From NCBI GenBank assembly GCA_964458325.1, contig CAYWIM010000001.1, positions 76,962 through 140,961 of the forward strand: 64,000 nucleotides of DNA, in the 5' to 3' direction. Of the stretch, positions 48,299 through 64,000 are shown one piece after another (the stretch's first letter is position 1; every line of letters begins with the position of its first letter). The notes beneath the pieces are model-generated. The model saw only the letters and a list, made by a program, of their open reading frames with translations, was not told the origin of the DNA and ran no database searches. Source of the DNA: an uncultured Verrucomicrobiota bacterium. Its GTDB lineage: Bacteria; Verrucomicrobiota; Verrucomicrobiia; Limisphaerales; UBA1319. The position numbers were made by a program, and so were the translations under genes.

Positions 48299-48334
48299 TC
48301 AGTCCAGGCTTCCACCGGCCGCGTCGAACCGAGT

Positions 48335-49105: not shown

Positions 49106-49169
49106 GCTTTGATCCTACCCCGTCCCGATCTCCGCGCAAGCACCCGATGTGGAGGCAATGAGGCCATCT

Positions 49170-50607: not shown

Positions 50608-50729
50608 ATTCAATCTCGTTGGATCGAACAACAGCTCCGTCGTCGCAGGGCTGGCCAGCCGCATGGATTTGATCATTGATCCCCAGTCCTGATGGGCCTT
50701 TAATCTCTCGAGCAACCACAAATGCGACG

Positions 50730-51647
50730 ATGAAAACGAATCCAGCGATCGGCCGGCGGCAATTCCTCCAAAGCAGCGCCATGCTTATCGCGGGCATGGG
50801 CTTTCACAAGGCCCTGCCCGCCATCGCCGCGCAGGTGAAGCTCGGCACTCCCGCGATGGAGAAGCTGGGCTGGCAGCTCAGCGTCCAGCTTTACACCTAC
50901 CGGCGATTCCCGCTTTTCGAGGCGCTCGACATGGTTGCGGCGCTGGGCATCCGCCATATCGAGCCGCTGACCGCTCTCAAAGTGGATGGCCAGCGGCCGG
51001 ATGTGCGCGCCAACGAGGATATGCCGGCCGATGTGCGCAACGAGCTTAAAGCGAGGCTCGCCGATCGGGGCATGTTTCTCTCGAGTATCTTTGCCCAATT
51101 CACGGGCGCGCCTGACCAGGCGAGACGCCTCTTCGAGTTCTGCAAAGAAACGGGCGCCGGCACGATCGTGGCCGAGCCGCCCGCCGACGCTTTGGACCTC
51201 ATCGAGAAACTCTGTGACGAGCACCGAATCAACGTGGCCTTTCACAATCATGCCCGCGGCCAATCGCCCTACTGGAAACCCGAGCAAGTCCTCGACGCCT
51301 GCCGCAACCGGACCGAGCGCATGGGGGCTTGCGCCGACGCGGGGCAATGGGCGCGCTCCGGGCTCGACCCGGTCGAGTCCCTTCGCAAGTTGAAAGGCCG
51401 CATTCTCAGCTTCCATCTGAAGGACATCGCGAAGAAGAACGAACCGAGCTCGCGCAACACGGTCTTCGGGGAAGGAGAAGGGGATTTTGCGAAGGTCCTC
51501 CGGGAGCTGAAGCGCCTGGGCTATCGCGGCCTGACCACGATCGATTTCGAGCATGACACCCCGGCCCTGCAGGAGGATATGGCCCGGAACGTGAAATACG
51601 TCGAGAAACAGGCCAACGAGATCCTCAACGCGCAAGCGGGACGATGA
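50730..51647 (+). CDS. Xylose isomerase-like TIM-barrel protein (sugar phosphate isomerase/epimerase) with TAT signal
   Basis: ATG at 50730 (MKTNPAIGRRQFLQSSAMLIAG), with AFHNH and FHLKD blocks and GEGEGDF...GYRGLTTIDFEHD. Confidence 0.75.
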   Translation: MKTNPAIGRRQFLQSSAMLIAGMGFHKALPAIAAQVKLGTPAMEKLGWQLSVQLYTYRRFPLFEALDMVAALGIRHIEPLTALKVDGQRPDVRANEDMPADVRNELKARLADRGMFLSSIFAQFTGAPDQARRLFEFCKETGAGTIVAEPPADALDLIEKLCDEHRINVAFHNHARGQSPYWKPEQVLDACRNRTERMGACADAGQWARSGLDPVESLRKLKGRILSFHLKDIAKKNEPSSRNTVFGEGEGDFAKVLRELKRLGYRGLTTIDFEHDTPALQEDMARNVKYVEKQANEILNAQAGR

Positions 51648-51682
51648 AGGTGGAGTATCGTCGATTTTACCTTGCTTTTTAC

Positions 51683-51699
51683 GACACTTCTGAAGTGTC
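51683..51699. promoter_or_regulatory. Perfect 7-bp inverted repeat GACACTT-CTG-AAGTGTC upstream of the island operon
   Basis: Read directly. It lies 36 nt after the isomerase stop and 44 nt before the HTH gene ATG. It could be an operator or a small terminator; the function is untested. Confidence 0.25.
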
Positions 51700-51742
51700 T
51701 GCTTCCGGCAGTTTTCGCCTGCCGATTGAGGCTGCAACATGC

Positions 51743-51976
51743 ATGCAAGAACAATGGCTGTCCGTTGATGAGATCGCACCGGATCCGGGCGTCAAACCGG
51801 ACACGACCTGGAAGGGTGCGGATGCAACGATGCCAGCCGACAAGGCCGGCCGCCTCTGGAAATTCCTCGCCTCCGAGGTGGACGCTGGGGTCAAAGGCGG
51901 CCAAACGGCTCAAGGAGCTAAAGAAGCCGCCCAGACCGCCCGGAAAATCCGCGCCAGAAACAACTCCAAAACATGA
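51743..51976 (+). CDS. Small divergent excisionase/MerR-type (HTH_17-like) DNA-binding protein
   Basis: MQEQWLSVDEIAPDPGVKPDTTWKGADATMPADKAGRLWKFLASEVDAGVKGG parallels the consensus WLSVDEIA..LGV..DT.Y.WI....MPA.K.GRLWKF...EVD.WV..G. The stop overlaps the next start (ATGA at 51973-51976). A longer form starting at 51644 (ATGA overlap with the isomerase stop) is possible. Confidence 0.5.
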   Translation: MQEQWLSVDEIAPDPGVKPDTTWKGADATMPADKAGRLWKFLASEVDAGVKGGQTAQGAKEAAQTARKIRARNNSKT

Positions 51977-53286
51977 ACGCAGTCATCAAACCTTGGCTGA
52001 GCACCGGGCTGATCGTTGCCTTGGCAGGCAACGCGGTGCTGACGGCCATCCTGATCCTCAAGCTGAGCCGCTTTGACGATACGAAAAAGCAGGCCGAGGA
52101 GGTTGAGGTTTTGGCCCAACAAAAACGCACCGAGCTGGCTGCCCTGAAGATCGAGATCGAATCCCTGAACAAGCAGAAAGACTCGTTAGCGCCATATGTT
52201 GCAGACTGGCAAAAGCTGCTGAGCGAGAAGGCAGCAGCCGAAGCGGCTCTGGCCACCAGTGAAGCTAAGCAGCGGCAAACGGATTCCGACGCGACGCAGG
52301 CAGAAAAACGCCTACAGGAAGTTCGGAAGAATCTCGCCGAAGCCCAGAAACAGAAAGCGGACACAGCCGCGGCCATTGAAAGCCTCTCATCAGAATTCGC
52401 GGTGCTGACGAGAACCAATATCGATGTCAGGACCCAGCTGGACCTGGCCGCGGAAGCGCAGCGGCGCTACGCCGAGGCAACGAACGCCCTCGCCAATGCG
52501 GATGTGCGGCGAACGCAGCTGGAAGCCGATGCCACCGCGGCCCAGGCCAAATTTGACCAGCTCCAAAAGGAGGCGGACGATCTTCGCCAGACGCGCGAGA
52601 AGCTAAGCGCCGAAACGGCTCCGCTCCGGCAGCAGATTCAGTCGCTCAGAGAGCAACTGATTCCGTTCGAGCAGAAGGCGACCGACTTGAAGGCGCTCCA
52701 AGCCGCTGCTCAACAGGAGCAGGAAAAGCTCGCGAGAGCTCAGCAACAGCTCGCGGCAGCCGAAACGCGCACCGCCGAGATCGAAGCGCGGCAGCGGCAG
52801 GCAACATCGGAGTTTGCGCAGGTGACCAATCGCATGGATCAGGCGCGGGCGCAGGCCGCAGACTGGGAAATCAAGCGCGACACGGCCCAGCAGGCGGCGA
52901 TGCGGGCCGGCCAGGATCTCGCTGCCGCACAGAAACTTGCCGCCGAAGCCCAGGCCGTCTACGACCAAACCTCTCGAGAGCATGCAAAGGCAGTGGCTCA
53001 GTTGGCGGCGGCAACAAAAGAGCTCGAGCAAACGCGAAAAGACCAGGCGGATTCGGAAGCGCGCCTTGTGGCCGCGAAGGCCGCCCTCGAGAAGGCGGAT
53101 TCGGAGACCACAACCGCTCGGATGCTATCTCTCGAATTCTCCGCCAAGCAGAGCCAACTGACCCGCGACACCTCGCGTCTTGAAGCCTCCATCGAGCGGC
53201 TGAAAACGGAAAAGGATTCGTTGGAAAAGGAAATCGGCCGCATGGAAGCGCAGCGCCAGAAGACCCCGCCGAGCGGGGCTCAATGA
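51973..53286 (+). CDS. Membrane-anchored long coiled-coil protein (island gene 2)
   Basis: 437 aa. The N-terminal hydrophobic helix WLSTGLIVALAGNAVLTAILILKL (nt about 51994-52062) is followed by about 400 aa of uninterrupted heptad-like A/E/Q/K/L/R-rich sequence. Confidence 0.7.
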   Translation: MNAVIKPWLSTGLIVALAGNAVLTAILILKLSRFDDTKKQAEEVEVLAQQKRTELAALKIEIESLNKQKDSLAPYVADWQKLLSEKAAAEAALATSEAKQRQTDSDATQAEKRLQEVRKNLAEAQKQKADTAAAIESLSSEFAVLTRTNIDVRTQLDLAAEAQRRYAEATNALANADVRRTQLEADATAAQAKFDQLQKEADDLRQTREKLSAETAPLRQQIQSLREQLIPFEQKATDLKALQAAAQQEQEKLARAQQQLAAAETRTAEIEARQRQATSEFAQVTNRMDQARAQAADWEIKRDTAQQAAMRAGQDLAAAQKLAAEAQAVYDQTSREHAKAVAQLAAATKELEQTRKDQADSEARLVAAKAALEKADSETTTARMLSLEFSAKQSQLTRDTSRLEASIERLKTEKDSLEKEIGRMEAQRQKTPPSGAQ

Positions 53287-53312
53287 GGCATGTATTTTGA
53301 CAGGAGTCCACT

Positions 53313-55286
53313 ATGCTAAGCACACAAATTTTCCAGTGGTCGCTGTGGGGGCTTTCATTGCTGGCCGGAGTCGGGGCAATTCTGGCGCTTTTCAAACTGC
53401 GTTACGCGGAGCGGTTCCTGCCAGAATGGAACAAGGTCAAGGAGATCGAAGCGACGCTCCCGGTTCGCCAGGAGGAGCTTCGGCAGGTTTCGGAAACCAT
53501 TCAACTCCGGGTCCAGGAACTGGCGAAACTGGAGGGAGAAGTGGGGCGCCTGCAAATTCTTCGTGAGTGGGAAAAGCAGAATCCCGATGCCCCCGCAAGG
53601 ATCTCTCAAATGATAAATGACGTGGACCGCGGAAAGTCTGAGCTCGAAGCTATCCAAACAAAGCTTGGTCAGGAGGAGAGCCGCCTCATAGATAACACGA
53701 AACAAGTCAACGCATTGGCACTTCAGAAGGCTCAAATCGAAGGACAAATCCCAGGATTACGGGACCAAATGGTCTCACTGCATAAACAAAAGAACGACCT
53801 TGAGGTCAAGCTGCGCGACATGGATGACCAGCGCAGGATTCTTGATGCAAGACTGGCCGTTTTGAAGATCGAAATCCAGGATCATGAAGCTCACCTCACA
53901 GCCTTGCGGCCTCAGGTGGCAAAGGCCGAGCAAGATAAGGAAATAGCAGAGCGCGAGAGAAAGGAAGCTGAAGGCGCGCGAGACGCAGCGCGCGCGGAAG
54001 TCAGCAACCTCCAGAAACTTAAGGAGTCTCTTGAGCAGCTTCTCAAGCGAACAGAAATAACCTTAGAGAAAACCGGTGTTACAGGTTCGAAAAGCTATTC
54101 CGATCTCTTTGCACCTGTCTTCAGCCGCAGCTTGCTGTCAAACAAGGGGTTTCAGCAAGAAATTGAAGCTCTGCAGCGCACTCGCGATTATATTAAAAGC
54201 CAAAACCTCATATTTCCGGAGCGGGTGCTTTACGCATTTCATACTTCACTTAAAACGAGTGAGATTTGCCCTCTTGTCGTACTGGCTGGCATCAGCGGTA
54301 CAGGCAAAAGCGAACTTCCTCGCCATTATGCTGATGGCATGGGGATGCATTTCCTGCTTAGCGCGGTCCAGCCTAGGTGGGATAGCCCGCAAGACCTGTT
54401 TGGATTTTACAACTATTTGGAAAAGAAGTACCGAGCGACTGAGTTAGCGCGCGCCTTTGTTCAATTTGAGAAGCCGCACCGAGCGATGCTGGAGGAACTG
54501 GCCAAGGAGCAAGGAGGCGAACTATGTAGCCTCAATGAATATATGCTGCTGGTGCTCTTGGATGAGATGAACCTGGCTCGGACCGAGTATTACTTCTCGG
54601 AATTTTTATCCAAGTTGGAGACACGCAGAAAACTTGATGAAAACAACGATGAGAAGCGCGCGCGTGCCGAAATAGAGCTCGACATGGGCAGCTTGCTCGG
54701 TGGGCTCACTTCTATTCGCCTTTATCCAGGAAAAAATGTCTTGTTCGCGGGAACAATGAATGAGGACGAGTCTACACAAGCTCTTTCTGATAAAGTTGTA
54801 GATCGTGCCAGCGTTCTTCGATTCTGGCGTCCCAAGCGAACAAACCTTGAAACACGAGAAAAACCAAACTTGCCGACGACGAATGGATTGAAGATCGATA
54901 CTTGGCAGCAATGGGTGCGGACCTCTGACAATTTAGCGTCAAAAGACAAAGATATTACATCTTGGATAAATAGGTTGAACGACGCGCTAGAAAGAATGGG
55001 ACGCCCCTTCGCTTTTCGAGTTGATGAGGCCATACGCTGCTACATAGCCAACTATCCTCGTGGAAACGTGCAAGACTGGCATAAGCGCGCAATGGCGGAT
55101 CAAATTGAGCAGCGCATCTTTCCGAAGCTACGCGGCATTGAAATCGAGCTCGCTCAAGAATCGCTGCGGGGCATTGGTGAGATTATTAAGCAGTTGGAAG
55201 ACGAACCGCTGAGCAAGGCGTTCCAAGCAAGTCACGAAAACCAGTCAACTTTTCTTTTTCGTGGCGTGGTGCGCGGCGACGATTGA
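53313..55286 (+). CDS. Membrane-anchored coiled-coil protein fused to a McrB/AAA_5-like NTPase (island gene 3)
   Basis: An AGGAG sequence lies 7 nt upstream of the ATG. It has a TM helix (WSLWGLSLLAGVGAILALFKL), a coiled coil at about aa 30-255 and Walker A LAGISGTGKS (54285-54308). It also has VQPRWDSPQDLFGFYN, Walker B LLVLLDEMNLARTEYYFSEFLS (54546-) and GTMNEDES...DRASVLRF (54750-). Confidence 0.75.
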   Translation: MLSTQIFQWSLWGLSLLAGVGAILALFKLRYAERFLPEWNKVKEIEATLPVRQEELRQVSETIQLRVQELAKLEGEVGRLQILREWEKQNPDAPARISQMINDVDRGKSELEAIQTKLGQEESRLIDNTKQVNALALQKAQIEGQIPGLRDQMVSLHKQKNDLEVKLRDMDDQRRILDARLAVLKIEIQDHEAHLTALRPQVAKAEQDKEIAERERKEAEGARDAARAEVSNLQKLKESLEQLLKRTEITLEKTGVTGSKSYSDLFAPVFSRSLLSNKGFQQEIEALQRTRDYIKSQNLIFPERVLYAFHTSLKTSEICPLVVLAGISGTGKSELPRHYADGMGMHFLLSAVQPRWDSPQDLFGFYNYLEKKYRATELARAFVQFEKPHRAMLEELAKEQGGELCSLNEYMLLVLLDEMNLARTEYYFSEFLSKLETRRKLDENNDEKRARAEIELDMGSLLGGLTSIRLYPGKNVLFAGTMNEDESTQALSDKVVDRASVLRFWRPKRTNLETREKPNLPTTNGLKIDTWQQWVRTSDNLASKDKDITSWINRLNDALERMGRPFAFRVDEAIRCYIANYPRGNVQDWHKRAMADQIEQRIFPKLRGIEIELAQESLRGIGEIIKQLEDEPLSKAFQASHENQSTFLFRGVVRGDD

Positions 55287-55289
55287 GAA

Positions 55290-57053
55290 ATGCGACCTTT
55301 TCTGTTTGCTGAACCGTGGGATTGGCTGCTGGGAACACACTGCTTATTGGAACCTCCTGTTGCGGTGGAGGGGGGTGGATCGCCGCGGCTGCTGACAAAT
55401 CTTCCCAAGGAATTTATGGACCTGGACCGGCCAACTGTTGCATTGCCGACCGGCAAGGCCGCGCTGCCGGCGTGTTCCTTCCCATTCCTGCTAGGTGCCG
55501 AACCTGCCCAGGCGTGGCATATACCGACCGACGCCAGCACGCACCGCCGGGATGCCGACTTCCGTCTGGCAATATCGTTCAGAAACGAAGTGTTTGACCT
55601 GCTCCAGCAAGGGATCCTTCTGCGGCCACCGCCCAAGGCAACCGACGAAGGCATCATTGGTACGTTGAGCGGGGCTGTGGCACAATGGATTGACTGGCAG
55701 GTGCGAGCCTTTCAGGAGCTGGGCCACATTCCTGAAGTCCACGATGGCGATTTCGAAGCTGCTACCCGCTCGGCAGTCGTTCGCCGAACATGGGAATCAG
55801 CAAAGAAAGCTTGGCTGAAGAACGAGACAGAAACGCCGCGGATGGCTCTGATCGTCGAACTGAGCCGGGATCAATATTTGCATAGTGCTCTCGAATCTGT
55901 GAGCCGCCATCCGCGGCGCATTCTCCAGCGCTACCGCACCGATACAGCACTGCCTCGCATTCAGGAGTTGGACTCCGCCTGCATTCGAGATTTCGCCCGA
56001 CGGCCGGGTATTACCGCAGTCGAGAAAGCCGGCTCCCGTCAGCGGCTGCTGGCCGTTATGCGTCGAGAGCAGCGAAACACACTCGAGAATAAAGTCGCAG
56101 CGTGGGTCATGGAAGCCGAAGTTGATCTTGCGCGGGAATATGCTGTTGCAAATGCGAGCTTCGATTGCAGTGACCCCAAAGTCGCAAGTGTTCGCCGCTT
56201 CGGAAACCGAAGCGCCCAATGGCGAAAATCCGAAGAACTGTTTGATGTAGCAGCCCTGGCTCACCACGTAGAAAGCCCGAATTACCCGCTCCAGTTCGAC
56301 GCCCGCTACAAATTGGTGTGGAAGACCTACCGCCGAATTCTCCGGGAGAAGAGCGTCGAAGACGATGCCTGGGCCTGGCAGCGTGTTCTTTGGGGCGAGA
56401 CAGGGCGTCAATTGGTGGCCTGCTGCCTTAACCAAATGTTCAACCCAATCGGCATCAGCACCCCATTTTACCGCACCGAATCACGCCAAGGCTGTTGGAC
56501 GGAGCCACCCGTTGCGCCGGGACCATTCCAGACCAATTCAGGCGACTGCCTCTTGTTTGACAGCCGCGACTTGGATGATGCGTCGGGCCACGCCCGTCGG
56601 CGCTGGATCGAGCGCCCTCCATTCCGTGGCGCCCAATATCTCGGCGCCAGCGGTTGCGACCAGGTTCTTTTTTGGCCAAGTAGCAACCGCGCGTTACTTG
56701 TATGGCATTTCTATCATGCCTCGCTTGAAAGAGCCGAGGGCGGACTCCAGGGTATTCTTGCCCGATGTGCTTGTGGGCTTGAGCAGCTTGGTGCCGATAT
56801 ACGCCGATACGCACAGAATCAGGTCCATCTGAGCGGGTTGCTCCTGATCGCCGATCTAGGCCGCAGTGCCACTCAGGATGCCCGTCAAAACGAAAGGTGT
56901 GTTGCCCTCGAGCCTGGTCCCCGTCTCACTTCCGGCGGCGGAGTCAACGCCCTGTGCCTGCCGCCGCCCGACGTGGATGCATGGCGCCGGTTCTCAAGCG
57001 ACCTTAAAGAAGGTTTTGAACTCGTAGTCGAGGAAACGTTGCGCACAACATGA
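55290..57053 (+). CDS. McrC/DUF2357-like partner protein, nuclease motif apparently degenerate (island gene 4)
   Basis: The gene starts 3 nt after the NTPase gene. The block RHPRRILQRYRTDTALPRIQELD...RREQRNTLENKVAAWV (56076-) resembles the McrC/DUF2357 ..DTPENRF.K.. region. Where PD...(D/E)xK is expected, the sequence reads GCDQVLFWPSSNRALLVWHFYHAS (56655-56723). Confidence 0.45.
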   Translation: MRPFLFAEPWDWLLGTHCLLEPPVAVEGGGSPRLLTNLPKEFMDLDRPTVALPTGKAALPACSFPFLLGAEPAQAWHIPTDASTHRRDADFRLAISFRNEVFDLLQQGILLRPPPKATDEGIIGTLSGAVAQWIDWQVRAFQELGHIPEVHDGDFEAATRSAVVRRTWESAKKAWLKNETETPRMALIVELSRDQYLHSALESVSRHPRRILQRYRTDTALPRIQELDSACIRDFARRPGITAVEKAGSRQRLLAVMRREQRNTLENKVAAWVMEAEVDLAREYAVANASFDCSDPKVASVRRFGNRSAQWRKSEELFDVAALAHHVESPNYPLQFDARYKLVWKTYRRILREKSVEDDAWAWQRVLWGETGRQLVACCLNQMFNPIGISTPFYRTESRQGCWTEPPVAPGPFQTNSGDCLLFDSRDLDDASGHARRRWIERPPFRGAQYLGASGCDQVLFWPSSNRALLVWHFYHASLERAEGGLQGILARCACGLEQLGADIRRYAQNQVHLSGLLLIADLGRSATQDARQNERCVALEPGPRLTSGGGVNALCLPPPDVDAWRRFSSDLKEGFELVVEETLRTT

Positions 57054-59761
57054 ACGGCATTGTCGGCATTGGCATTGACCTCACCCAGCACGTTCCGCTG
57101 GTGAGCTTTGCCGTGTGTCCAGCCGCTCTGCGGGCAGACGACACAATGGATGCCCAGATTCTCGCAAACCAGTGGCCACCAAAACTGGAACTTGCCGGAG
57201 TGTTCCATCCGCATGTGCCTTGTGCTGTTCTGCCTGTGCACTCGGGGGAGCCGCTGCTCATCGGGGATGCGGCTGCAATCCATCGCCGGTCCTCTGGCCT
57301 CCCATGGCCACCGGAAGCCCAAGTGCCTTATGGCAACGACACCAGTTTCGGATTTGGGCGGGTGCCATTAGCAGCAGCATGGAGTGCGCTGCTGCCCCAA
57401 GCCGATGAAAAGGAGTCCCTAACCCATCGTAGCGATCACGCGTTCAAGTGGTCTCCAGAAAAACGAGAATACACATCTTATGCTGGCACCATTTTGGCTT
57501 CAAGCATCAAGGCTTTTCTCGCTGCCGCCCGAGTCCCTATTTCATCCCGGCTGACAACGATCGTGGTTCCTGATGCTCTCGATGAGGCCGGGCAGCAAAT
57601 TCTCCTCGAGAGCCTTGCCCAGGTTGGCATGGCTGCCGACAACCTCCATTTGTTGCCCAGGCCGCTGGCTGTGGCCTTGAATTGGTGCAGCACTGCCAAG
57701 GAACCAGTGGGAGTTGCCGACGAGGTCGAGGCGGGCACACCAATCGGCCGTTTGCGAGTGCTGACAACTGCGCTCGACCTTTGGGAAGCCGTCTCTCTGG
57801 AACTCCGGGTTCGCTCCCACGCCGGGCGAACTTGGCTTTTGCCTGTTCGCGATCGTGCCAGGCTGAACGCGGCCTTGCCGGAGCTTCAAACACCCGGTCT
57901 GAGCTTCGCTATAGCCCTCGCACGTGCCGAAGACAATGGTGCTCATCTTCATTGGTGGCACCGTCTTTTCGCCAGCGATTGGCTCACCCAACGTCTTGCC
58001 GCTGCGCGGGATCTCTCATCTGAGGAGATTCAAAGTCTTCGCGAGATTCGTTCCTCACGGCCCCCGGAAACATTGCGTGAGCAACTTGAACAAATCGAAG
58101 TGCTTAGACCCATCACGACGCGCCTTTTCCGCGATACCCCGTCCCTTCGTGACGATGTGGCTCGCAAATGGCAGGCCCAGGAGCGCCAAGTCGGTTTCGC
58201 GAACTATCCCTGCAAAGCGGTGTTAGCGGATGGAGCCCTATCCTCGCTCAGGATGGAGCGCGGCATTCCTCTTGGGCAATTCGTCGTGCAGCATGACGGC
58301 GATCCTCACTCACCCGATTGGCTTGCGGGATACACCGCCGCCGTTCACGGTGCCGCGCTCGCTGCAGCCGCCATTGGGTCCGGCCTGCCGTGCTACCGCG
58401 AGACATTATTGCCGCTGGACCTCTATGTCTTCGCAAAAAATGATTACGGCGATCTTATCCCGCAATGGCGAGAACTGGTTAAAACGGAAAGCGTTGAGGC
58501 AGGAAGAACATGGAAATGCCCAGCACCCGTCGTCGGCCTTCAAATCCGCGAAAAACAAGACCGACTTCGAGTGCTTCTTCGGCGAAAACTTGCAGGCACC
58601 GCACCATTTCGGCAAGTTACTTCAGAGCTATTAAAACCAGCTCCCAATGACGAGCCCGTTCAAATAAATATTGAGGTAAGGCCGGGCCAGGGTTTCGCCC
58701 AAGTTCGCATTGACTCCCTCACTCCAGGCTTGTTTGCCAGTCGTCTTGACTGGCGTACGATGGCCAAGTGCGATGAACCAAAGTGTCCGCCACTCGCATA
58801 CATTCCTGGTGTTTCTCGGATAATTCCGGACCGCGAGATGTTCGATCGTGCCCAAAGCACTCTGGAGGAGGTGCTACTGGCGCTCGTGAGAAACAGCCCG
58901 GTGGTTAGGCAGCGGCTTCGCGAGGCTATCAAACTGCTAAACAAGTGGCCGCTTGCGCATAACGTGGAGCAGTCCAGGGGGCACACGATGGCCAAAGATT
59001 TTATGATTCATTACGGCGTCATCGGCTCAGAGGGGCGCTTGGATGCTTTGCCTTCTCCCGAGCTCGCACGCAGCCTTCGGAACGCCATTGGCGAAAAATT
59101 TGCTTCATTGGTCAGGCGAGGTGCTGTATCCTCGCCCTTAGGTAATTCTTTGCTCCGAATCGCGGGATGGTTCTACATCGCTATTCCAGATGAATGCCTT
59201 ACCTTTCTTCGGTCAAGGCTTCCCAAGTCATCAGAAGATAGTGTCATGCTGTCGGCAGTTGAGCTTCACGCCATCGGGTTATCCTTGTCACAACCCAGCG
59301 ACACAAGCCGGTTTTTCCCTGTATGCACTCAGGCATTAAGAAGCCCTAAGGCCAAGCCCAACAATTATCTCCGTGCAGTCCGCAACATTTGTCGCTTCCG
59401 GAACGACGCTTTGAGCCCGGCGACAATATCTGATGCAGTGCTAAACCAGCTTGTAGATGAGTTGTTTGAAATAATGCGCAGACATCTTGTTAAAGGGGGT
59501 TTCGCACCTCGTATTGTAGCAAATTGTTTAGAAACGTTGCTATTTTTGCTTAAGCGTCGGCGTTACGATGCTGGTTTCCTTGCGCCGACCTCTTCCCTTG
59601 CCGGATCTTTAATTCACTTCCTCGAAAGAGTGAGCAAGTATCATAACTGGCGGCTGCCGCCACGGTTGCAGCAAGTAGGCCAAACCACGGTGAGATTCCT
59701 CAAGATGGAAGGAACGCTCACCGACTTGGAAGACCTCTTAAGCGATGATCAGGAGCTGTAA
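57050..59761 (+). CDS. Hsp70/actin-fold (ASKHA)-like protein with beta-rich and long helical C-terminal regions (island gene 5)
   Basis: It makes an ATGA overlap with gene 4. IVGIGIDL (57065-) resembles phosphate-1. TIVVPDALDEAGQQILLESLAQVGM..NLHLLPRPLAVALNW (57560-) parallels Hsp70 ITVPAYFNDAQRQATKDAG.IAGL.V.RIINEPTAAALAY. LDLWEAVS stands in place of DLGGGTFD, and AAVHGAALAAAAIG (58340-) parallels EAVA.GAA. About 450 further aa follow. Confidence 0.55.
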   Translation: MNGIVGIGIDLTQHVPLVSFAVCPAALRADDTMDAQILANQWPPKLELAGVFHPHVPCAVLPVHSGEPLLIGDAAAIHRRSSGLPWPPEAQVPYGNDTSFGFGRVPLAAAWSALLPQADEKESLTHRSDHAFKWSPEKREYTSYAGTILASSIKAFLAAARVPISSRLTTIVVPDALDEAGQQILLESLAQVGMAADNLHLLPRPLAVALNWCSTAKEPVGVADEVEAGTPIGRLRVLTTALDLWEAVSLELRVRSHAGRTWLLPVRDRARLNAALPELQTPGLSFAIALARAEDNGAHLHWWHRLFASDWLTQRLAAARDLSSEEIQSLREIRSSRPPETLREQLEQIEVLRPITTRLFRDTPSLRDDVARKWQAQERQVGFANYPCKAVLADGALSSLRMERGIPLGQFVVQHDGDPHSPDWLAGYTAAVHGAALAAAAIGSGLPCYRETLLPLDLYVFAKNDYGDLIPQWRELVKTESVEAGRTWKCPAPVVGLQIREKQDRLRVLLRRKLAGTAPFRQVTSELLKPAPNDEPVQINIEVRPGQGFAQVRIDSLTPGLFASRLDWRTMAKCDEPKCPPLAYIPGVSRIIPDREMFDRAQSTLEEVLLALVRNSPVVRQRLREAIKLLNKWPLAHNVEQSRGHTMAKDFMIHYGVIGSEGRLDALPSPELARSLRNAIGEKFASLVRRGAVSSPLGNSLLRIAGWFYIAIPDECLTFLRSRLPKSSEDSVMLSAVELHAIGLSLSQPSDTSRFFPVCTQALRSPKAKPNNYLRAVRNICRFRNDALSPATISDAVLNQLVDELFEIMRRHLVKGGFAPRIVANCLETLLFLLKRRRYDAGFLAPTSSLAGSLIHFLERVSKYHNWRLPPRLQQVGQTTVRFLKMEGTLTDLEDLLSDDQEL

Positions 59762-59765
59762 TTCG

Positions 59766-62700
59766 ATGATAGGCCGCATCATTCAAACGCTTGCTCTTGC
59801 GCATGGTCCGCAGACTGCAGCAGAGGTTTGCGATTCCATGCGGCGTGGTGGTCTTAAAATAGAAAAGTATGAAGTTGTTCAACAATTGCGGCAACTTCAG
59901 AAAAGAGGAATCGTAAAGCTGGAAATAGTGAGATGGCGACTACTGCAAATGCCGAAAGAGACAGACTTTCTACCCGGCGAAAAGGTCAAAGAATCTGCTG
60001 GCTCGCTCCCTATAGGCAAAGATGGTGGCGCGTCGGTTTGGCAATCGAGCGCAAACACCGTAATCGTGGCGCCGCCGCAGATGCCGCCAGGGCGGTGGGA
60101 CTTGTTTCGGCGGTTCTGCCGCTACTACATGGACTGTCTTCTGCAGGAAGAGGCGCCGCAATTGCGGTGCTATGTCGACAATGAGGATGACACGTGGATC
60201 GTTGCACCGCAGGTTCCGTGGGCGAGGCTGAGTGCAAATGGAGGGTTTGCCATCCCACTGTCGCGCGAGCAGGCCGCGTTTCAACGCAATCGCGTGCGCC
60301 GGGGTGAGGAGGAGTGCATTTACCTATGCTACCCGGTCCTGCTTGTGAAGCCGAAGGAGACTTCGCGGTTCGTGGTCCCGCTGTTTGCACAGCCGATGCA
60401 GGCAGAATGGCACGGCGGCATCATGCATCTTCAACCCGATGGTCCGATCGCCGTCAATGGTGCGTGGCTCGAATACTCATTCCGTCAGCGAAAAGAGCGG
60501 GAGGCATTCCTTCGCGCCATGGGATTTTTGAACGACGCCGGGGCGGACGAGGAAGGCGAAGGGGTGTCAACCGGACCGAGAGATTTCGCACGGCTTGCTC
60601 AGGACGCAGCGCATTACATCCATGATGCCGCCCGTTTTGCCGAGGACATCCGGCCGTTTCAGCTCGGCCCGCCGCCGAACTGGGAGAAAGCGCAACCGGG
60701 TCTGTACAACACGGCCCTTCTGACCCTTGGCCCCCGACTGAAATACACCCGGAGCCTCCTGCGCGACCTGCGAGACATTTCTGAAAAATTCACCGACCAG
60801 GAATTGGACGGAACGGCTCTGGTGTCCCTTTTTCCGCATGACCCGGCACCGGCCGAGCCCCAGGTGCCGCCTCCGGCAACCGCCGAACCTTCGGTGCCGG
60901 CCGATACGCCTTTCTTTGCCGCTGAAGATCTTGCACAAACTCGCCTTCTTCATACCAGCCAGCGCGCGGCTGTCGTGAACTCGCTCGCGGAGAGAGTGTC
61001 CATGGTGACCGGTCCGCCTGGCACTGGCAAATCCGAAGTCGTGGCGGCAATGCTGCTAAATCATTTGCTCAGGGGACAGCCTGCGCTCTTTGCCAGCAAG
61101 AACCACCAGGCTCTTGACGCTGTTCTGCCCCGTCTGAATGCCGCTGTCGAAGGCGGCGATCTCATCATCCAGACTTCAAGCCGCGAACTCGCACAACGAC
61201 AGAATTATCTGGGCAAGCTGCAAAGTCTTCTGGCCCGTCCGTCTCGGCCCGATGCGGCGCGAGGCGACGGCTTCCGCCGCCAGCTTGCCGGTTCTTTTCA
61301 GGAGCAGCGCACAGCCCTCAGGGACATTGGCACGATTGAGCGCGCTCGGAGCGAGTATGAGGCGGTGAATGCAAAGCTCACTGAGCTGCGCAAAAGCCTG
61401 CCCTTTCACGCGCAATCGGATGAATGCATGGCCTCCTGGCCCGCCGCGATGTCCCCTGAACTCCTGGCCGAAGCGCAGACCGAGCTGCGCCTGGCGATGG
61501 CCCAGCCAGAAAACCTTCTCGAAAGGATCTGGCAATGGTTTCGAAGAACTCAAATTGAAGCCAGGCGCAAGGCGGCTCGAGCGCCATTCGAGGGGCTTCC
61601 ATCCCCGTTCGCCGACCGCAACCTGCCTGGCGCACAATCACCGGCAGAAGCGTGGGACGAATACTTTGGTATCTGGGGAACTTGGGCTGAAGCTGCCCGC
61701 GCCGCCGCGCTTGCGCGCAGTTGCGAGCAGCGCATTGCTCAATTGCCACAGGCCGAAGAATGTAATCGCCGGCTCGAACACGCCCAGCAGGCGATTGAAC
61801 GCCAGACCAGAGAGTGGATGGCCTGGGCGGCCGGCGGCTTGCCGAACGTGCTGTCGCCAGCGGACCGCGAATCGCTCGCAAACCTGCGTGCCGGCATCCA
61901 GAACTGGGGGCCGGACCGATTCGCCCGGGAACTCAAGAAACACTTCCAGCTCATTCTCCGCGCGTTTCCTTTATGGTCGGTCTCCAACCTTTCGGCGCGC
62001 AGCGCGATTCCCCTTGTGCCGGCACTGTTCGATCTTGTCATCATTGACGAGGCCAGCCAGTGCGACATCGCGTCCGTTGTCCCTTTGCTGGCCCGGAGCC
62101 GGAAGGCTGTTTTTGCCGGTGATCCCATGCAGTTGGCCCATGTCAGCACGCTGGGCGCGGCCGTCGAGCAAACCCTGCTCCAGCAATACGATCTCACGGA
62201 TGCGCAGGTGCAGCGGTTCACGTATCGCGTCAACAGCGCATTTGTCCTCGCGGATGCGAACGCGTCGATTCCTGAGAGCGCTCGGGTTCGCCTTGATCTC
62301 CATTTCCGATCGCATGGCCTCATCGCGGATTACTGCAATGATGCGTTCTATTCGAAGACGCTGAATGTCGTGACGCTTACTGAGCGCCTCAATGTTCCGC
62401 CGGGCCACCAGCCAGGAATCCACTGGACACATGTGGCCGGCACACTGAGACCGGGCCCGACCGGCGCGTGGTGTGCTGACGAGATCGAAATAATCGAGCG
62501 GGAGCTGCGCTTATTGGCCGCGAGCGGTTACCGAGGCACCATCGGTGTGGTTACGCCTTTCAGACAGCAAATGATCCATATCAGGGATACCTTCGATGCG
62601 AATGGAGCCCTCGCCCCCGATTTCATGGAGCGCGTGCGCTTTCTGGCCTCAACCGCTCATGGTTTCCAGGGTGACGAGCGTGACCTGATTCTATTCAGCC

Positions 62701-63278
62701 TTTGCGCGGGCCCGGAAATGCCCGAAGGCGCAACCATTTTTCTTCGCGAGAATCCCAATCTGTTCAATGTTGCCGTGTCTCGCGCCCGGGCCGTTCTGCA
62801 CGTGGTCGGCAACCGCGATTGGGCGCTCAACTGCGGGGTCCCGTTCATCGAAAAACTCGCGCGCCGCACTGTCCGTGGCGCTACGAGCGCACCTCCGAAT
62901 CCGCCGGAGCCTTACCAATCCCCGTGGGAGAAAACCCTTGCCGATGCCTTGGCTGAGGCCGGCATCAAAGCGATCCCACAATACCCCATTGCGGGGCGGT
63001 TTCTCGACTTGGCCATTCTCAGCCCCGTCAAGGTCGATGTGGAAGTGGACGGCGAATCTGTCCACCGGACCGCCGGCGGCGGGCGAAAGGACGACGATTA
63101 CTGGCGCGACCTGCAGCTCCAAAGCCTTGGCTGGAAGGTGTGCCGGTTCTGGGTGTATGAGCTTCGCGAAGACCTGGATCGTTGCATTCGAAGGTTGAAT
63201 ACAATGCTCAGTGAATCATTGAGGAGGCCGACCGGGAACGTGTTGCCGCAAGATGAAAACGAAAGCCGTACGCAATGA
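59766..63278 (+). CDS. SF1 (UPF1/DNA2-like, AAA_11/AAA_12) helicase with N-terminal winged-helix-like domain, large helical insertion and C-terminal Vsr/DUF559-like PD-(D/E)xK nuclease (island gene 6)
   Basis: The alternative ATG at 59745 overlaps gene 5 by 17 nt. Helicase motifs are: I GPPGTGKS (61011-61034), II DLVIIDEASQ (62031-), III VFAGDPMQL, HFRSH..IADYCNDAFY, IGVVTPFRQQ, TAHGFQGDERDLILFS and FNVAVSRAR. The C-terminus reads RFLDLAI...VDVEVDGESVH...DYWRDLQLQSLGWKVCRFW (about 62916-63203). Confidence 0.85.
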   Translation: MIGRIIQTLALAHGPQTAAEVCDSMRRGGLKIEKYEVVQQLRQLQKRGIVKLEIVRWRLLQMPKETDFLPGEKVKESAGSLPIGKDGGASVWQSSANTVIVAPPQMPPGRWDLFRRFCRYYMDCLLQEEAPQLRCYVDNEDDTWIVAPQVPWARLSANGGFAIPLSREQAAFQRNRVRRGEEECIYLCYPVLLVKPKETSRFVVPLFAQPMQAEWHGGIMHLQPDGPIAVNGAWLEYSFRQRKEREAFLRAMGFLNDAGADEEGEGVSTGPRDFARLAQDAAHYIHDAARFAEDIRPFQLGPPPNWEKAQPGLYNTALLTLGPRLKYTRSLLRDLRDISEKFTDQELDGTALVSLFPHDPAPAEPQVPPPATAEPSVPADTPFFAAEDLAQTRLLHTSQRAAVVNSLAERVSMVTGPPGTGKSEVVAAMLLNHLLRGQPALFASKNHQALDAVLPRLNAAVEGGDLIIQTSSRELAQRQNYLGKLQSLLARPSRPDAARGDGFRRQLAGSFQEQRTALRDIGTIERARSEYEAVNAKLTELRKSLPFHAQSDECMASWPAAMSPELLAEAQTELRLAMAQPENLLERIWQWFRRTQIEARRKAARAPFEGLPSPFADRNLPGAQSPAEAWDEYFGIWGTWAEAARAAALARSCEQRIAQLPQAEECNRRLEHAQQAIERQTREWMAWAAGGLPNVLSPADRESLANLRAGIQNWGPDRFARELKKHFQLILRAFPLWSVSNLSARSAIPLVPALFDLVIIDEASQCDIASVVPLLARSRKAVFAGDPMQLAHVSTLGAAVEQTLLQQYDLTDAQVQRFTYRVNSAFVLADANASIPESARVRLDLHFRSHGLIADYCNDAFYSKTLNVVTLTERLNVPPGHQPGIHWTHVAGTLRPGPTGAWCADEIEIIERELRLLAASGYRGTIGVVTPFRQQMIHIRDTFDANGALAPDFMERVRFLASTAHGFQGDERDLILFSLCAGPEMPEGATIFLRENPNLFNVAVSRARAVLHVVGNRDWALNCGVPFIEKLARRTVRGATSAPPNPPEPYQSPWEKTLADALAEAGIKAIPQYPIAGRFLDLAILSPVKVDVEVDGESVHRTAGGGRKDDDYWRDLQLQSLGWKVCRFWVYELREDLDRCIRRLNTMLSESLRRPTGNVLPQDENESRTQ

Positions 63279-63995: not shown

Positions 63996-64000
63996 GATAT

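What the first reader, a model, noticed from the sequence alone, without database searches (positions are those of the whole stretch)
51973..55286. Two consecutive membrane-anchored coiled-coil proteins, the second carrying the McrB-like NTPase
Both proteins start with a single strongly hydrophobic helix: WLSTGLIVALAGNAVLTAILILKL in the first and WSLWGLSLLAGVGAILALFKL in the second. Each helix is followed immediately by a long heptad-rich region of about 400 aa and about 230 aa respectively.

Canonical McrB proteins are soluble and have N-terminal DNA-binding domains. Here that domain is replaced by a TM helix plus a coiled coil, and a second, NTPase-less paralogue-like protein precedes it. 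This suggests a membrane-tethered filament or heterodimeric stalk that positions the AAA+ ring at the inner membrane. That is an unusual place for a nucleic-acid-targeting restriction module and may point to sensing of phage entry or envelope events.

The McrB GTP-specificity signature NxxD is not cleanly present. The sequence reads MNEDES, so nucleotide preference is open.
Basis: partly seen in the sequence, partly recalled or inferred. Interest (0 to 1): 0.72.

Follow-up and report, generated by a model that had tools for sequence, protein, structure and literature searches.

The report
Membrane-anchored Type III-B CoCoNuT defence operon
The two membrane-anchored coiled-coil proteins are the CnuA and CnuB parts of an already described, still untested McrBC-derived anti-phage system (Type III-B CoCoNuT), and their membrane anchors, which the describing paper's text does not mention, are conserved across the whole family.

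Summary
Genes 51973-53286 and 53313-55286 each encode a roughly 20-residue N-terminal hydrophobic helix followed by a long coiled coil, and the second ends in a McrB-type P-loop NTPase.

They sit in a tight six-gene operon on a low-GC island:
- a small helix-turn-helix (HTH) protein;
- CnuA, which is only an anchor plus coiled coil;
- CnuB, a coiled coil plus GTPase;
- CnuC, with DUF2357 and no conserved catalytic lysine;
- CnuD, an Hsp70-like fold confirmed by AlphaFold2 and Foldseek;
- CnuH, an SF1 helicase fused to a Vsr/DUF559 nuclease.

This is the gene set of the Type III-B CoCoNuT of Bell et al. 2024. The "unclean" MNEDES is the NxD(E) motif that defines that branch, and it is invariant here.

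What the paper's main text does not mention is the membrane anchor:
- 124 of 135 full-length 50%-identity cluster representatives of the NTPase subfamily carry it.
- Nearly all of 80 genomic loci from at least six phyla carry it on both CnuA and CnuB.
- The CnuB helix is as conserved as the NTPase.
- The charge bias gives CnuB an N-out/C-in topology in 67 of 69 loci.

CnuA topology is unresolved. Sensing of phage entry remains speculation. I file this as a new member of a known kind with an undescribed trait.

The parts
51644..51976 (+). g1, a small helix-turn-helix protein. The ORF as listed is 110 aa, and the real start is probably Met34 at about 51743. It is the first gene of the operon in the Verrucomicrobial version.
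   Evidence: NCBIfam MAD1 HTH, E=2.3e-5, below the curated cutoff. Its stop overlaps the g2 start. It is conserved upstream of CnuA in L001, L002, L004, L005, L009 and L057.
51973..53286 (+). g2 = CnuA, 437 aa: a single N-terminal hydrophobic helix followed by a coiled coil, with no other domain.
   Evidence: Homologous or analogous ORFs lie directly upstream of CnuB in 68 loci.
51994..52065 (+). Predicted transmembrane helix of CnuA (residues 8-31), with a polar Asn20 inside it.
   Evidence: KD19 = 2.28. The Asn/Ser at this position and the 'LLS' motif recur in Verrucomicrobial homologues.
52069..53262 (+). CnuA coiled-coil region (residues 33-430).
   Evidence: Period-3.5 z=3.8, AEKQLR 69%, P+G 1.3%. 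25 of 28 windows have coiled-coil-like composition. Hits to SMC, JetC and Rad50 coiled-coil segments.
53313..55286 (+). g3 = CnuB, 657 aa: transmembrane helix, coiled-coil stalk and NxD-type McrB-like AAA+ NTPase.
   Evidence: Pfam AAA_5 at 21.9 bits against a cutoff of 22. PADLOC PDC-M26A, E=2.9e-40. hhalign to E. coli McrB gives probability 80% and E=1.4e-5.
53337..53393 (+). Predicted transmembrane helix of CnuB (residues 9-27, WSLWGLSLLAGVGAILALF), followed by K28 and R30.
   Evidence: KD19 = 1.93. W9 is invariant and G19 is present in 42 of 43 sequences. Region identity is 0.66, against 0.40 for the coiled coil. K+R counts are 0.29 on the N-flank and 3.52 on the C-flank across 69 loci.
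53427..54074 (+). CnuB coiled-coil stalk (residues 39-254).
   Evidence: AlphaFold2 helices 39-73 and 93-254. Period-3.5 z=4.1.
54159..55283 (+). CnuB NTPase and C-terminal domain (residues 283-657). Walker A GISGTGKS is residues 326-333 (nt 54288-54311). Walker B DE is residues 417-418 (nt 54561-54566).
   Evidence: These residues are invariant columns in alignments A1 and A2. They align to the E. coli McrB Walker A and B motifs.
54759..54770 (+).
   Evidence: Invariant in 43 close and 27 cross-phylum homologues. It aligns on NTAD of E. coli McrB. Bell et al. define the NxD branch.
55290..57053 (+). g4 = CnuC, the McrC homologue: a DUF2357 domain and a poorly conserved C-terminal half with no conserved catalytic lysine.
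   Evidence: Pfam DUF2357, E=8.9e-7, above the cutoff. In the 72-sequence alignment, the only columns after residue 352 that pass the acidic or basic conservation filter are D358, E370 and E397.
57050..59761 (+). g5 = CnuD: Hsp70-like NBD plus SBD-beta (about residues 1-594) and an all-helical repeat domain (about 595-897).
   Evidence: AlphaFold2 pLDDT 85.7. Foldseek top hits are BiP, DnaK, Hsp110 and Ssb, E from 1e-10 to 1e-8, probability 1.00. No sequence family matches it.
59745..63278 (+). g6 = CnuH: an N-terminal winged-HTH-like segment, an SF1 (UPF1/DNA2-like) helicase with about 345 aa inserted between Walker A (residue 423) and DEASQ (residue 768), and a C-terminal Vsr/DUF559-type endonuclease (residues 1062-1154, nt 62928-63206).
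   Evidence: Pfam AAA_11, AAA_12, MTES_1575 and DUF559. The helicase motifs and the nuclease motif LDLA...EVDG...HR...RFWVY are conserved in 50 homologues.

Best explanation
Identity. The two genes are CnuA and CnuB of a Type III-B CoCoNuT, a McrBC-derived and experimentally uncharacterised defence system. The operon runs HTH, CnuA, CnuB, CnuC, CnuD, CnuH.

Shown or strongly indicated by sequence:
- CnuB is a single-pass inner-membrane protein with a few residues outside. Its coiled-coil stalk (about 25-30 nm if fully extended) and its NxD-type McrB-like AAA+ NTPase are in the cytoplasm.
- CnuA is a second single-pass protein made only of an anchor and about 400 aa of coiled coil.
- Both anchors are conserved across the whole family. 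Within the Verrucomicrobial clade they are conserved at the sequence level, with small-xxx-small spacings and invariant Trp and Gly in CnuB, and an intramembrane Asn/Ser in CnuA.

Inferred mechanism:
- The two helices pack together in the membrane.
- CnuB oligomerises as McrB does, into a hexameric ring.
- The DUF2357 domain of CnuC plugs the ring and gates NTP hydrolysis, as McrC does for McrB. CnuC contributes no cleavage.
- The Hsp70-like CnuD acts as the substrate sensor or adaptor. Bell et al. propose an RNA- or ribosome-associated target.
- CnuH, a helicase with an intact Vsr/DUF559 nuclease, is the effector.
- The tether keeps this nuclease machine at the inner face of the membrane. That is where phage nucleic acid enters, and it is away from the nucleoid.
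For: Gene set and order of domains match the published Type III-B description:
- a coiled-coil-only CnuA;
- a coiled coil plus McrB-like NTPase with an invariant NxD(E) motif;
- a DUF2357 CnuC without a conserved catalytic lysine;
- a separate Hsp70-like CnuD with a helical repeat domain;
- an SF1 helicase with a large insertion and a fused Vsr-like nuclease;
- no TerY-P genes among the operon's six ORFs.

The same genes co-occur in 80 loci.

Anchors:
- hydropathy and start-codon support;
- conservation in about 100 of 120 close homologues, in 124 of 135 cluster representatives, and on both proteins in nearly all complete loci from Verrucomicrobiota, Planctomycetota, Desulfobacterota, Alpha- and Gammaproteobacteria, Anaerolineales and Lentisphaerota;
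- the CnuB anchor is as conserved as the NTPase;
- the positive-inside bias gives N-out/C-in in 67 of 69 loci.

Defence context:
- a low-GC island, 52-62% against 64-69% in the first 46 kb of the window;
- tightly spaced or overlapping genes;
- in other genomes, neighbours include Type I R-M, a TerB/BrxC-D-like/DEAD helicase module and a reverse transcriptase.
Against: - No dedicated TM or coiled-coil predictor was available. Membrane insertion rests on hydropathy, charge bias and conservation.
- The AlphaFold2 model of CnuB is only moderate (pLDDT 70, NTPase core 43-60). Foldseek found nothing significant; McrB 6ut6_D ranked 30th with E=2.3.
- Sequence profiles did not reach McrB in the PDB. 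The McrB link rests on hhalign at 80% probability, the DUF2357 partner, the motif and the literature.
- I could not read the paper's Type III-B sequence list, which was truncated in the held copy. Identity with the authors' III-B clade is therefore inferred from architecture, and the paper's unheld supplementary files could not be checked for mention of the helices.
- The paper calls III-B mainly alphaproteobacterial. This locus and its closest relatives are Verrucomicrobial, with the helicase gene last and an extra HTH gene.
- Pairing of CnuA with CnuB is not supported by length co-evolution after phylogenetic correction (r=0.19, p=0.12).
- No member of this system has been tested experimentally, so every functional step is inference.
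Confidence: 0.72

Rival explanations
1. Trans-membrane relay. CnuA is oriented N-in/C-out, so its roughly 400-aa coiled coil lies in the periplasm, like TolA domain II or FtsB/FtsL. There it senses envelope perturbation or phage penetration and signals through helix-helix contact in the membrane to the cytoplasmic CnuB GTPase.
For: - Outside the Verrucomicrobial clade, CnuA-like proteins have a 15-35-aa N-tail rich in K/R. The mean is 2.43 K+R in the 15 residues before the helix, and in 20 of 68 loci the N-flank carries more K+R than the C-flank.
- Conserved juxtamembrane motifs flank the helix ('LD(R/K)xFP' before it, 'GWKI(V/I)NLE' after it).
- For short tails the positive-inside rule favours a cytoplasmic N-terminus.
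- CnuB has the opposite signature, 0.29 K+R.
- The anchors are sequence-conserved, as expected for a specific helix-helix contact.
- The lengths of CnuA and CnuB do not co-evolve once phylogeny is removed.
Against: - In this window the CnuA N-tail is only 7 residues with one Lys, while four K/R follow the helix, which favours C-in.
- 36 of 68 loci have more K+R after the helix than before it.
- If extended, 400 aa of helix would measure about 60 nm, far wider than a periplasm.
- Bell et al. expect the coiled coils of the components to interact, which needs one compartment.
- No export signal other than the anchor is present.
Confidence: 0.15
2. The N-terminal hydrophobic segments do not span the membrane. 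They are either cleaved signal peptides or the buried core of an oligomeric helical bundle, and the system is soluble.
For: - No dedicated predictor was run.
- AlphaFold2 simply draws a helix.
- The paper's main text does not mention TM helices for Type III-B.
- About 4 of 135 representatives lack the segment.
Against: - The uncharged spans are 23-26 residues at the median, too long for a Sec h-region.
- CnuB has no positive n-region and no AxA cleavage site.
- The CnuB passenger is a P-loop NTPase, which must stay cytoplasmic.
- Trp residues at the outer edge, Lys/Arg at the inner edge and KD19 scores up to 3.3 are typical of transmembrane helices.
- The helix persists across phyla while its sequence diverges, as expected for a lipid-facing helix.
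Confidence: 0.07
3. It belongs to the CoCoPALM group, in which the NxD McrB GTPase is fused to an FtsB-like TM plus coiled-coil domain and linked to pilus assembly, rather than to a CoCoNuT.
For: - CoCoPALM is the only McrB group for which Bell et al. mention a transmembrane plus coiled-coil fusion.
- One homologue is named 'cell division protein FtsL' by JGI.
Against: - No signal-peptidase-family hit in any of the six operon genes, and none of the ORFs I read immediately upstream resembles one.
- The McrC homologue has no coiled-coil-like window.
- CnuD and CnuH, which define Type III CoCoNuTs, are present and conserved in the loci.
- There is no Pfam DivIC/FtsB hit.
Confidence: 0.03
4. It is a conventional modification-dependent DNA restriction enzyme of the McrBC type that merely happens to be membrane-tethered, with CnuC as the DNA endonuclease.
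For: - The NTPase is homologous to McrB and a DUF2357 partner is present.
- The system sits in defence islands next to R-M systems.
Against: - CnuB has no DNA-reader domain.
- The signature is NxD, not NxxD.
- The CnuC C-terminal half is poorly conserved, with no (D/E)xK lysine.
- Three further conserved genes (CnuA, CnuD, CnuH) are part of the module.
Confidence: 0.03

Closest known systems
Type III-B CoCoNuT (coiled-coil nuclease tandem), Bell, Sahakyan, Makarova, Wolf and Koonin, eLife 2024 (PMC11090510)
   Same: - Coiled-coil-only CnuA.
- CnuB, a long coiled coil plus an NxD McrB-like GTPase.
- CnuC with DUF2357 and no catalytic motif.
- A separate Hsp70-like CnuD with a helical repeat domain.
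- CnuH, an SF1 helicase with a large helical insertion and a directly fused Vsr-like nuclease.
- No TerY-P genes.
   Different: - The paper's main text and its preprint never mention transmembrane helices in III-B CnuA or CnuB. Here they are family-wide.
- The paper calls III-B mainly alphaproteobacterial. This clade is Verrucomicrobial, and relatives occur in at least six phyla.
- In the Verrucomicrobial version the helicase gene is last and a small HTH gene is first. Elsewhere the order is CnuH, CnuA, CnuB, CnuC, CnuD.
Canonical McrBC (E. coli EcoKMcrBC, Type IV restriction)
   Same: - An AAA+ NTPase with Walker A, Walker B and the sensor Asn in the same places.
- A partner with the McrC N-terminal DUF2357 domain.
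   Different: - A TM helix plus coiled coil replaces the N-terminal DNA-binding domain.
- NxD replaces NxxD.
- The McrC-like nuclease is apparently dead.
- There are three extra conserved partners.
CoCoPALM systems (named but not described in detail by Bell et al. 2024)
   Same: An NxD McrB GTPase preceded by a transmembrane helix and a coiled coil.
   Different: CoCoPALM is linked to signal-peptidase or pilus-assembly genes and has a coiled coil on McrC. Neither is present here, and CnuD and CnuH are present instead.
Shield ShdA and RmuC-type proteins (TM helix, long coiled coil, nuclease; cited in Bell et al.)
   Same: A single N-terminal membrane anchor followed by a long cytoplasmic coiled coil that carries a nucleic-acid enzyme, in a defence context.
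   Different: ShdA carries a RmuC-like nuclease directly. Here the passenger is an AAA+ GTPase and the nuclease sits on a separate helicase. No homology was detected.
Zorya ZorAB (10.1101/2023.12.18.572097; PMC11890865) and Kiwa KwaAB (PMC11785009)
   Same: These are membrane-embedded defence complexes that act at the inner membrane and hand over to cytoplasmic nucleic-acid effectors. From my own knowledge, ZorA has a long cytoplasmic coiled-coil tail. This is an analogy for how the present system might work.
   Different: There is no homology. Those are multi-pass or motor-type membrane complexes with demonstrated sensing of envelope events. Here there are only two single-pass anchors and no evidence of sensing.

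Membership tests
Type III-B CoCoNuT | CnuB: a long coiled coil fused N-terminally to a McrB-like GTPase domain | tested here: met
   Helix 93-254 in AlphaFold2. Period-3.5 z=4.1. AAA_5 at 21.9 bits against a cutoff of 22. hhalign to E. coli McrB gives probability 80%, E=1.4e-5.
Type III-B CoCoNuT | NxD variant of the GTPase signature, usually followed by E or D | tested here: met
   N483-E-D485-E486 is invariant in A1 and A2. It aligns on NTAD of McrB.
Type III-B CoCoNuT | CnuC with the McrC N-terminal domain (DUF2357) | tested here: met
   PF09823, E=8.9e-7, 28.8 bits against a cutoff of 23.3.
Type III-B CoCoNuT | CnuC lacks the PD-(D/E)xK catalytic motif but keeps the fold | tested here: inconclusive
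   There is no conserved lysine or (D/E)xK after residue 352 in 72 homologues, which agrees with the feature.
Type III-B CoCoNuT | Immunoglobulin-like beta-sandwich at the CnuC N-terminus | not tested
   About 160 residues precede DUF2357. No model was made.
Type III-B CoCoNuT | Separate CnuD gene: Hsp70-like NBD/SBD plus HEAT-like helical repeats | tested here: met
   AlphaFold2 pLDDT 85.7. Foldseek hits BiP, DnaK, Hsp110 and Ssb with E from 1e-10 to 1e-8. Residues 595-897 are all-helical. The phosphate-1 and phosphate-2 motifs look degenerate (GIDLTQH, LDLWEA; my reading of the g5 sequence, with D10, D243, W245 and E246 invariant).
Type III-B CoCoNuT | CnuH: UPF1-like SF1 helicase with a large helical insertion after Walker A and a directly fused Vsr-like nuclease | tested here: met
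   AAA_11/AAA_12 and MTES_1575/DUF559. Walker A lies at residue 423 and DEASQ at 768. The nuclease motif is conserved in 50 homologues.
Type III-B CoCoNuT | wHTH (Sul7s-like) and OB-fold in CnuH | not tested
   The N-terminal 70 residues look like a winged helix by eye only.
Type III-B CoCoNuT | Separate CnuA protein with no recognisable domain other than the coiled coil | tested here: met
   Only coiled-coil-type hits were found. The added N-terminal TM helix is not in the published description.
Type III-B CoCoNuT | Placement of the GTPase inside the authors' III-B clade | not testable with these tools
   The III-B sheet of Supplementary file 3 is truncated in the held copy.
Canonical McrBC | N-terminal DNA-binding (modified-base reader) domain on McrB | tested here: not met
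   The N-terminus is a TM helix plus coiled coil.
Canonical McrBC | NxxD signature | tested here: not met
   The motif is NxD.
Canonical McrBC | McrC with an active PD-(D/E)xK nuclease | tested here: not met
   No conserved catalytic lysine. BLASTP against E. coli McrC gives E=0.65.
CoCoPALM | GTPase fused to an FtsB-like TM plus coiled-coil domain | tested here: inconclusive
   A TM helix and a coiled coil are present, but there is no DivIC/FtsB family hit.
CoCoPALM | Associated signal-peptidase-family (pilus assembly) gene | tested here: not met
   None of the six operon genes hits a signal-peptidase family, and by eye none of the ORFs immediately upstream resembles one. The conserved gene set in the 80 loci consists only of relatives of g1-g6; the flanks of those loci were sampled in only a few cases.
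CoCoPALM | Coiled coil fused to the McrC homologue | tested here: not met
   0 of 38 windows in g4 have coiled-coil-like composition.

The most novel reading that the evidence does not exclude
CnuA and CnuB form an antiparallel pair in the inner membrane. CnuA is N-in with a periplasmic, TolA-like coiled coil that detects phage penetration or envelope damage. The signal passes through the sequence-conserved helix-helix contact to a membrane-tethered McrB-type AAA+ ring, which then licenses the CnuH helicase-nuclease. This would be the first AAA+ restriction motor controlled by a trans-envelope sensor.
Probability: 0.12. Interest if true: 0.78.

Novelty: new member of a known kind. Interest (0 to 1): 0.45.

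Why it matters
CoCoNuTs are a large branch of McrBC-type immunity that is so far known only from computation. All current ideas about them assume soluble complexes acting on RNA or ribosomes.

Two observations constrain any model for Type III-B. First, the Type III-B-like family found here is built on two single-pass membrane anchors; it comprises 908 clusters at 50% identity with E<=1e-30, and 124 of the 135 best full-length representatives carry the helix. Second, the CnuB anchor is as conserved as the catalytic domain within the Verrucomicrobial clade. The motor therefore works at the inner face of the membrane, and the helices probably mediate a specific contact.

This gives simple experiments: anchor deletions or swaps, topology reporters, and localisation during infection. 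It also adds a McrB-type AAA+ NTPase to the growing list of membrane-sited defence systems such as Zorya, Kiwa and Shield.

It is not a new kind of system. The gene set, the coiled coils and the odd NxD motif were all published in 2024.

Tried and rejected
1. phmmer and profile searches of CnuB against PDB sequences. The full-length protein and the full-length profile hit only coiled-coil proteins. The NTPase-only profile found nothing below E=0.07. There is no direct sequence link to a solved McrB.

2. AlphaFold2 of CnuB followed by Foldseek against the PDB. The NTPase core has low confidence and there is no match below E=0.1. The weak hits are AAA+ proteins (BchI, dynein, RavA, BrxL, ComM, and McrB 6ut6_D at rank 30), which is suggestive only.

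3. BLASTP of CnuC against E. coli McrC is not significant. The apparent 'DAR versus DAK' match lies in the conserved PNYxLQxDxRY motif at the end of DUF2357, not in a nuclease site.

4. Length co-variation of CnuA and CnuB as a test of coiled-coil pairing. The raw Spearman correlation is 0.52. After independent contrasts on an NTPase tree, r=0.19 and p=0.12. I rejected this as evidence.

5. Paralogy of g2 and g3. They share only coiled-coil-level similarity.

6. The paper's supplementary Type III-B sequences are truncated in the held copy, so I could not check the authors' own representatives for the helix.

7. The literature search for a membrane-anchored McrB found only the CoCoNuT paper and its preprint.

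8. tRNA, promoter and terminator scans of the island showed nothing above background.

9. The lookup of the source contig returned only a 5.6-kb duplicate with no further context.

Full report
**1. What is in the sequence**

From about 51.6 kb to 63.3 kb the + strand carries six tightly packed ORFs:
- g1, 51644-51976
- g2, 51973-53286 (437 aa)
- g3, 53313-55286 (657 aa)
- g4, 55290-57053 (587 aa)
- g5, 57050-59761 (903 aa)
- g6, 59745-63278 (1177 aa)

The junctions are a 4-nt overlap (g1/g2), a 26-nt gap with a GGAG (g2/g3), a 3-nt gap (g3/g4), a 4-nt overlap (g4/g5) and a 17-nt overlap (g5/g6), so this is one operon. G+C falls from 64-69% in the first 46 kb of the window to 52-62% from 52 kb onwards, as expected for an acquired island. 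A gene caller on an independent public contig gives the same 110-, 437- and 657-aa products.

**2.

- The best 19-residue Kyte-Doolittle windows are 2.28 (g2) and 1.93 (g3). Nothing else in either protein exceeds 1.07.
- The start codons that include the helices are the credible ones. The g3 ATG has a Shine-Dalgarno-like GGAG. The g2 ATG is coupled to the g1 stop. The only alternative starts that would remove a helix are weak TTG or GTG codons inside it or, for g2, a TTG at codon 47.
- Behind each helix the sequence has coiled-coil character. Hydrophobic periodicity at 3.5 residues is z=3.8 (g2 33-430) and z=4.1 (g3 33-262), against z=0.9 in the g3 NTPase.
- g2 residues 33-430 are 69% A/E/K/Q/L/R and 1.3% P+G.
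- Both regions hit the coiled-coil arms of SMC, Rad50, JetC and LmuB models.
- AlphaFold2 draws g3 as helices 3-33 and 39-73 and one unbroken helix 93-254. That last helix would be about 24 nm long if straight.

**3. What the operon is**

Family and structure searches identify the other parts:
- g3 has a P-loop domain that hits Pfam AAA_5, the family McrB belongs to, at 21.9 bits against a cutoff of 22. It also hits the PADLOC candidate PDC-M26A at E=2.9e-40.
- A profile of the NTPase domain from 27 loci aligns to E. coli McrB with 80% probability and E=1.4e-5. Walker A lies on Walker A, Walker B on Walker B, and N-E-D-E lies on the N-T-A-D signature.
- g4 carries DUF2357, the McrC N-terminal domain, above the Pfam threshold. 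In 72 homologues its C-terminal half is poorly conserved and has no conserved lysine or (D/E)xK.
- g5 matches no sequence family. Its AlphaFold2 model (pLDDT 85.7) matches BiP, DnaK, Hsp110 and Ssb with Foldseek E from 1e-10 to 1e-8 and probability 1.00. An all-helical repeat domain follows (residues 595-897).
- g6 is an SF1 helicase (AAA_11/AAA_12) with about 345 residues inserted between Walker A and motif II, and a C-terminal MTES_1575/DUF559 (Vsr-type) endonuclease. Both the helicase and the nuclease motifs are conserved in 50 homologues.
- g2 has no domain beyond the anchor and the coiled coil.

**4. Comparison with the literature**

Bell et al. (eLife 2024, PMC11090510) describe exactly this set as the Type III-B CoCoNuT:
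- CnuA, a separate protein that is coiled coil only;
- CnuB, a coiled coil plus a McrB-like GTPase of the branch in which NxxD is shortened to NxD, 'usually followed by a glutamate or a second aspartate';
- CnuC, with DUF2357 and an inactivated nuclease;
- CnuD, a separate Hsp70-like NBD/SBD with HEAT-like repeats;
- CnuH, a UPF1-like SF1 helicase with a large helical insertion and a Vsr-like nuclease fused directly to it;
- no TerY-P triad.

It is invariant in 43 close and 27 cross-phylum homologues. I could not place the protein in the authors' tree, because the III-B sheet of their supplement is truncated in the held copy. Membership thus rests on architecture. Seven defining features were tested and met, one was inconclusive, and three could not be or were not tested.

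The CoCoPALM group is the only McrB group for which the paper mentions a transmembrane plus coiled-coil fusion. It does not fit: none of the six operon genes hits a signal-peptidase family, the McrC homologue has no coiled coil, and CnuD and CnuH are present.

**5. What goes beyond the paper: the anchors are a family trait**

Neither the paper nor its preprint mentions transmembrane helices in III-B CnuA or CnuB. A literature search found nothing else on membrane-anchored McrB.

Evidence for CnuB:
- About 100 of the 120 closest database homologues start with a near-identical 'QWSLWGLSLLAGVGAILALFKL'. Most of the rest are fragments or lack their N-terminus.
- In an alignment of 43 of them, residues 1-33 are as conserved as the NTPase (identity 0.66 against 0.64) and much more conserved than the coiled coil (0.40). 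W9 is invariant and G19 is present in 42 of 43.
- The helix has several small-xxx-small spacings (S15/G19, A18/A22, G21/A25).
- I then searched 1.84 billion cluster representatives with the NTPase domain alone, so that nothing about the N-terminus could bias the result. This gave 908 clusters at E<=1e-30.
- Of the best 150 clusters, 135 are full length. Of those, 124 have an N-terminal window with KD>=1.6 and seven more are borderline or mis-started. About four lack it.

Evidence from genomic loci:
- I examined 80 loci from Verrucomicrobiota, Planctomycetota (including anammox Brocadiaceae), Desulfobacterota, Alpha- and Gammaproteobacteria, Anaerolineales and Lentisphaerota.
- g3-, g4- and, in most complete loci, g5-type genes are adjacent. 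The helicase gene lies either downstream, as in the Verrucomicrobial order found here, or upstream of the coiled-coil gene, as in most other loci that carry it.
- In nearly every complete locus both CnuB and the ORF just upstream of it begin with a hydrophobic segment of KD 1.6-3.3, although the sequences have diverged beyond recognition between phyla.
- Persistence of the property despite sequence turnover is what a real membrane anchor predicts.

**6. Topology**

- For CnuB the tail before the helix is about 5 residues. It carries 0.29 K+R on average, against 3.52 in the 15 residues after the helix, and C>N holds in 67 of 69 loci. That is a clear N-out/C-in signature, and it is the only orientation compatible with a cytoplasmic NTPase. 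It also argues against a cleaved signal peptide: there is no positive n-region, the uncharged span is about 26 residues, and there is no AxA site.
- For CnuA the picture is mixed. In this window the tail is MNAVIKP (one Lys) and four K/R follow the helix, which favours C-in.
- Across 68 loci, with starts refined by upstream-gene end and Shine-Dalgarno, the N-tail is about 20 residues at the median with 2.43 K+R, against 2.94 after the helix. C>N holds in 36 loci and N>C in 20.
- A periplasmic CnuA coiled coil therefore cannot be excluded for part of the family.
- I tried to settle this through length co-variation of CnuA and CnuB. The raw correlation (rho=0.52) falls to r=0.19, p=0.12 after independent contrasts, so it says nothing either way.

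**7. How it most likely works**

Shown or strongly indicated:
- a six-gene operon of Type III-B CoCoNuT composition;
- two single-pass anchors;
- CnuB stalk and NTPase in the cytoplasm;
- intact Walker A, Walker B and sensor Asn;
- no conserved catalytic lysine in CnuC, so it is probably nuclease-dead;
- a CnuD with an Hsp70 fold but degenerate phosphate-binding motifs (GIDLTQH, LDLWEA; my reading of the sequence);
- an intact helicase and Vsr/DUF559 nuclease in CnuH.

Inferred from what is known of McrBC (a hexameric McrB ring whose hydrolysis is stimulated by the McrC N-terminal domain, as summarised) and from Bell et al.:
- CnuB forms a ring held about 25-30 nm below the membrane by its stalks.
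- CnuC plugs the ring and gates it.
- CnuD and the wHTH/helicase of CnuH recognise the target. The authors favour RNA or ribosome-associated substrates.
- The CnuH nuclease cleaves.
- My addition is that the anchors, probably packed against each other, confine this machine to the inner face of the membrane. Incoming phage nucleic acid appears first there, and that location lies away from the nucleoid.

Defence-island neighbours in other genomes fit an immune role. They include Type I R-M at L013, a TerB/BrxC-D-like/DEAD helicase module at L001 and a reverse transcriptase at L017. No member of the system has been tested experimentally.

**8.

The description is accurate and the membrane tether is well supported. 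The idea that this is an unusual, undescribed McrB architecture is not supported, because it was published in 2024. Paralogy between the two proteins is not shown. The McrC-type nuclease is probably dead, so 'restriction module' in the classical sense is doubtful. Sensing of entry or envelope events remains a hypothesis.

The most novel reading still open is a periplasmic CnuA sensor that signals through the membrane to the AAA+ ring. I put it at about 12%.

**9. Scores**

Novelty: new member of a known kind, namely a Verrucomicrobial gene-order variant of Type III-B CoCoNuT. It shows a family-wide trait, anchors on both CnuA and CnuB, that the published text does not report. Interest: 0.45. 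The finding is useful and directly testable, and it constrains models of an uncharacterised defence family, but it is not a new kind of system.

Noticed in passing
window 1-46000 versus 46000-64000: The first 46 kb show a strong positive GC skew, +0.08 to +0.31 per 2-kb bin. It flips near 46 kb, where genes switch to the - strand. G+C is 64-69% there (61% in one bin) against 52-62% from 52 kb on.
   Followed up: no
window 51644-51976: A small HTH protein (weak match to the MADS-system MAD1 HTH, below cutoff) is translationally coupled to CnuA. It is conserved upstream of CnuA only in the Verrucomicrobial loci, and the real start is probably Met34. It may be the operon's regulator.
   Followed up: partly
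L010, L011, L021, L023, L025, L027, L031, L040, L049, L051, L054, L062, L074 (CnuA-like ORFs): In Desulfobacterota and Brocadiaceae the CnuA-like proteins share juxtamembrane motifs on both sides of the helix: 'LD(R/K)xFP' before it and 'GWKI(V/I)NLE' after it. This suggests both flanks do something specific.
   Followed up: no
window 46244-48298 (-) and 48335-49105 (-): A Ser/Thr protein kinase with several hydrophobic segments in its C-terminal half lies next to what looks like an ECF-type sigma factor, just upstream of the island (read by eye only).
   Followed up: no
window 49897-50607 (+): A protein with a prepilin-type N-terminal cleavage/methylation motif ([16 protein letters not shown]), typical of Verrucomicrobia and Planctomycetes. 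This fits the Verrucomicrobial affiliation of the closest homologues.
   Followed up: no
L034:2827-4368 (-): Caenispirillum bisanense carries a second, shorter g3-like ORF (513 aa, E=1e-30) on the opposite strand next to the system.
   Followed up: no
L001:1383-7411 and L013:111-4896: Directly upstream of the CoCoNuT operon in two Verrucomicrobial MAGs lie other defence-type modules. L001 has a TerB/TerB-C protein, a BrxC/BrxD-family ATPase and a DEAD helicase. L013 has Type I R-M HsdR and HsdS.
   Followed up: partly
window 53313-55286 versus PADLOC PDC-M26A: The PADLOC candidate system PDC-M26 has an A component related to CnuB (E=2.9e-40 over residues 158-440), but no PADLOC model matches CnuC or CnuD. 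PADLOC 2.0 therefore probably covers a different CoCoNuT type and would miss this system.
   Followed up: no
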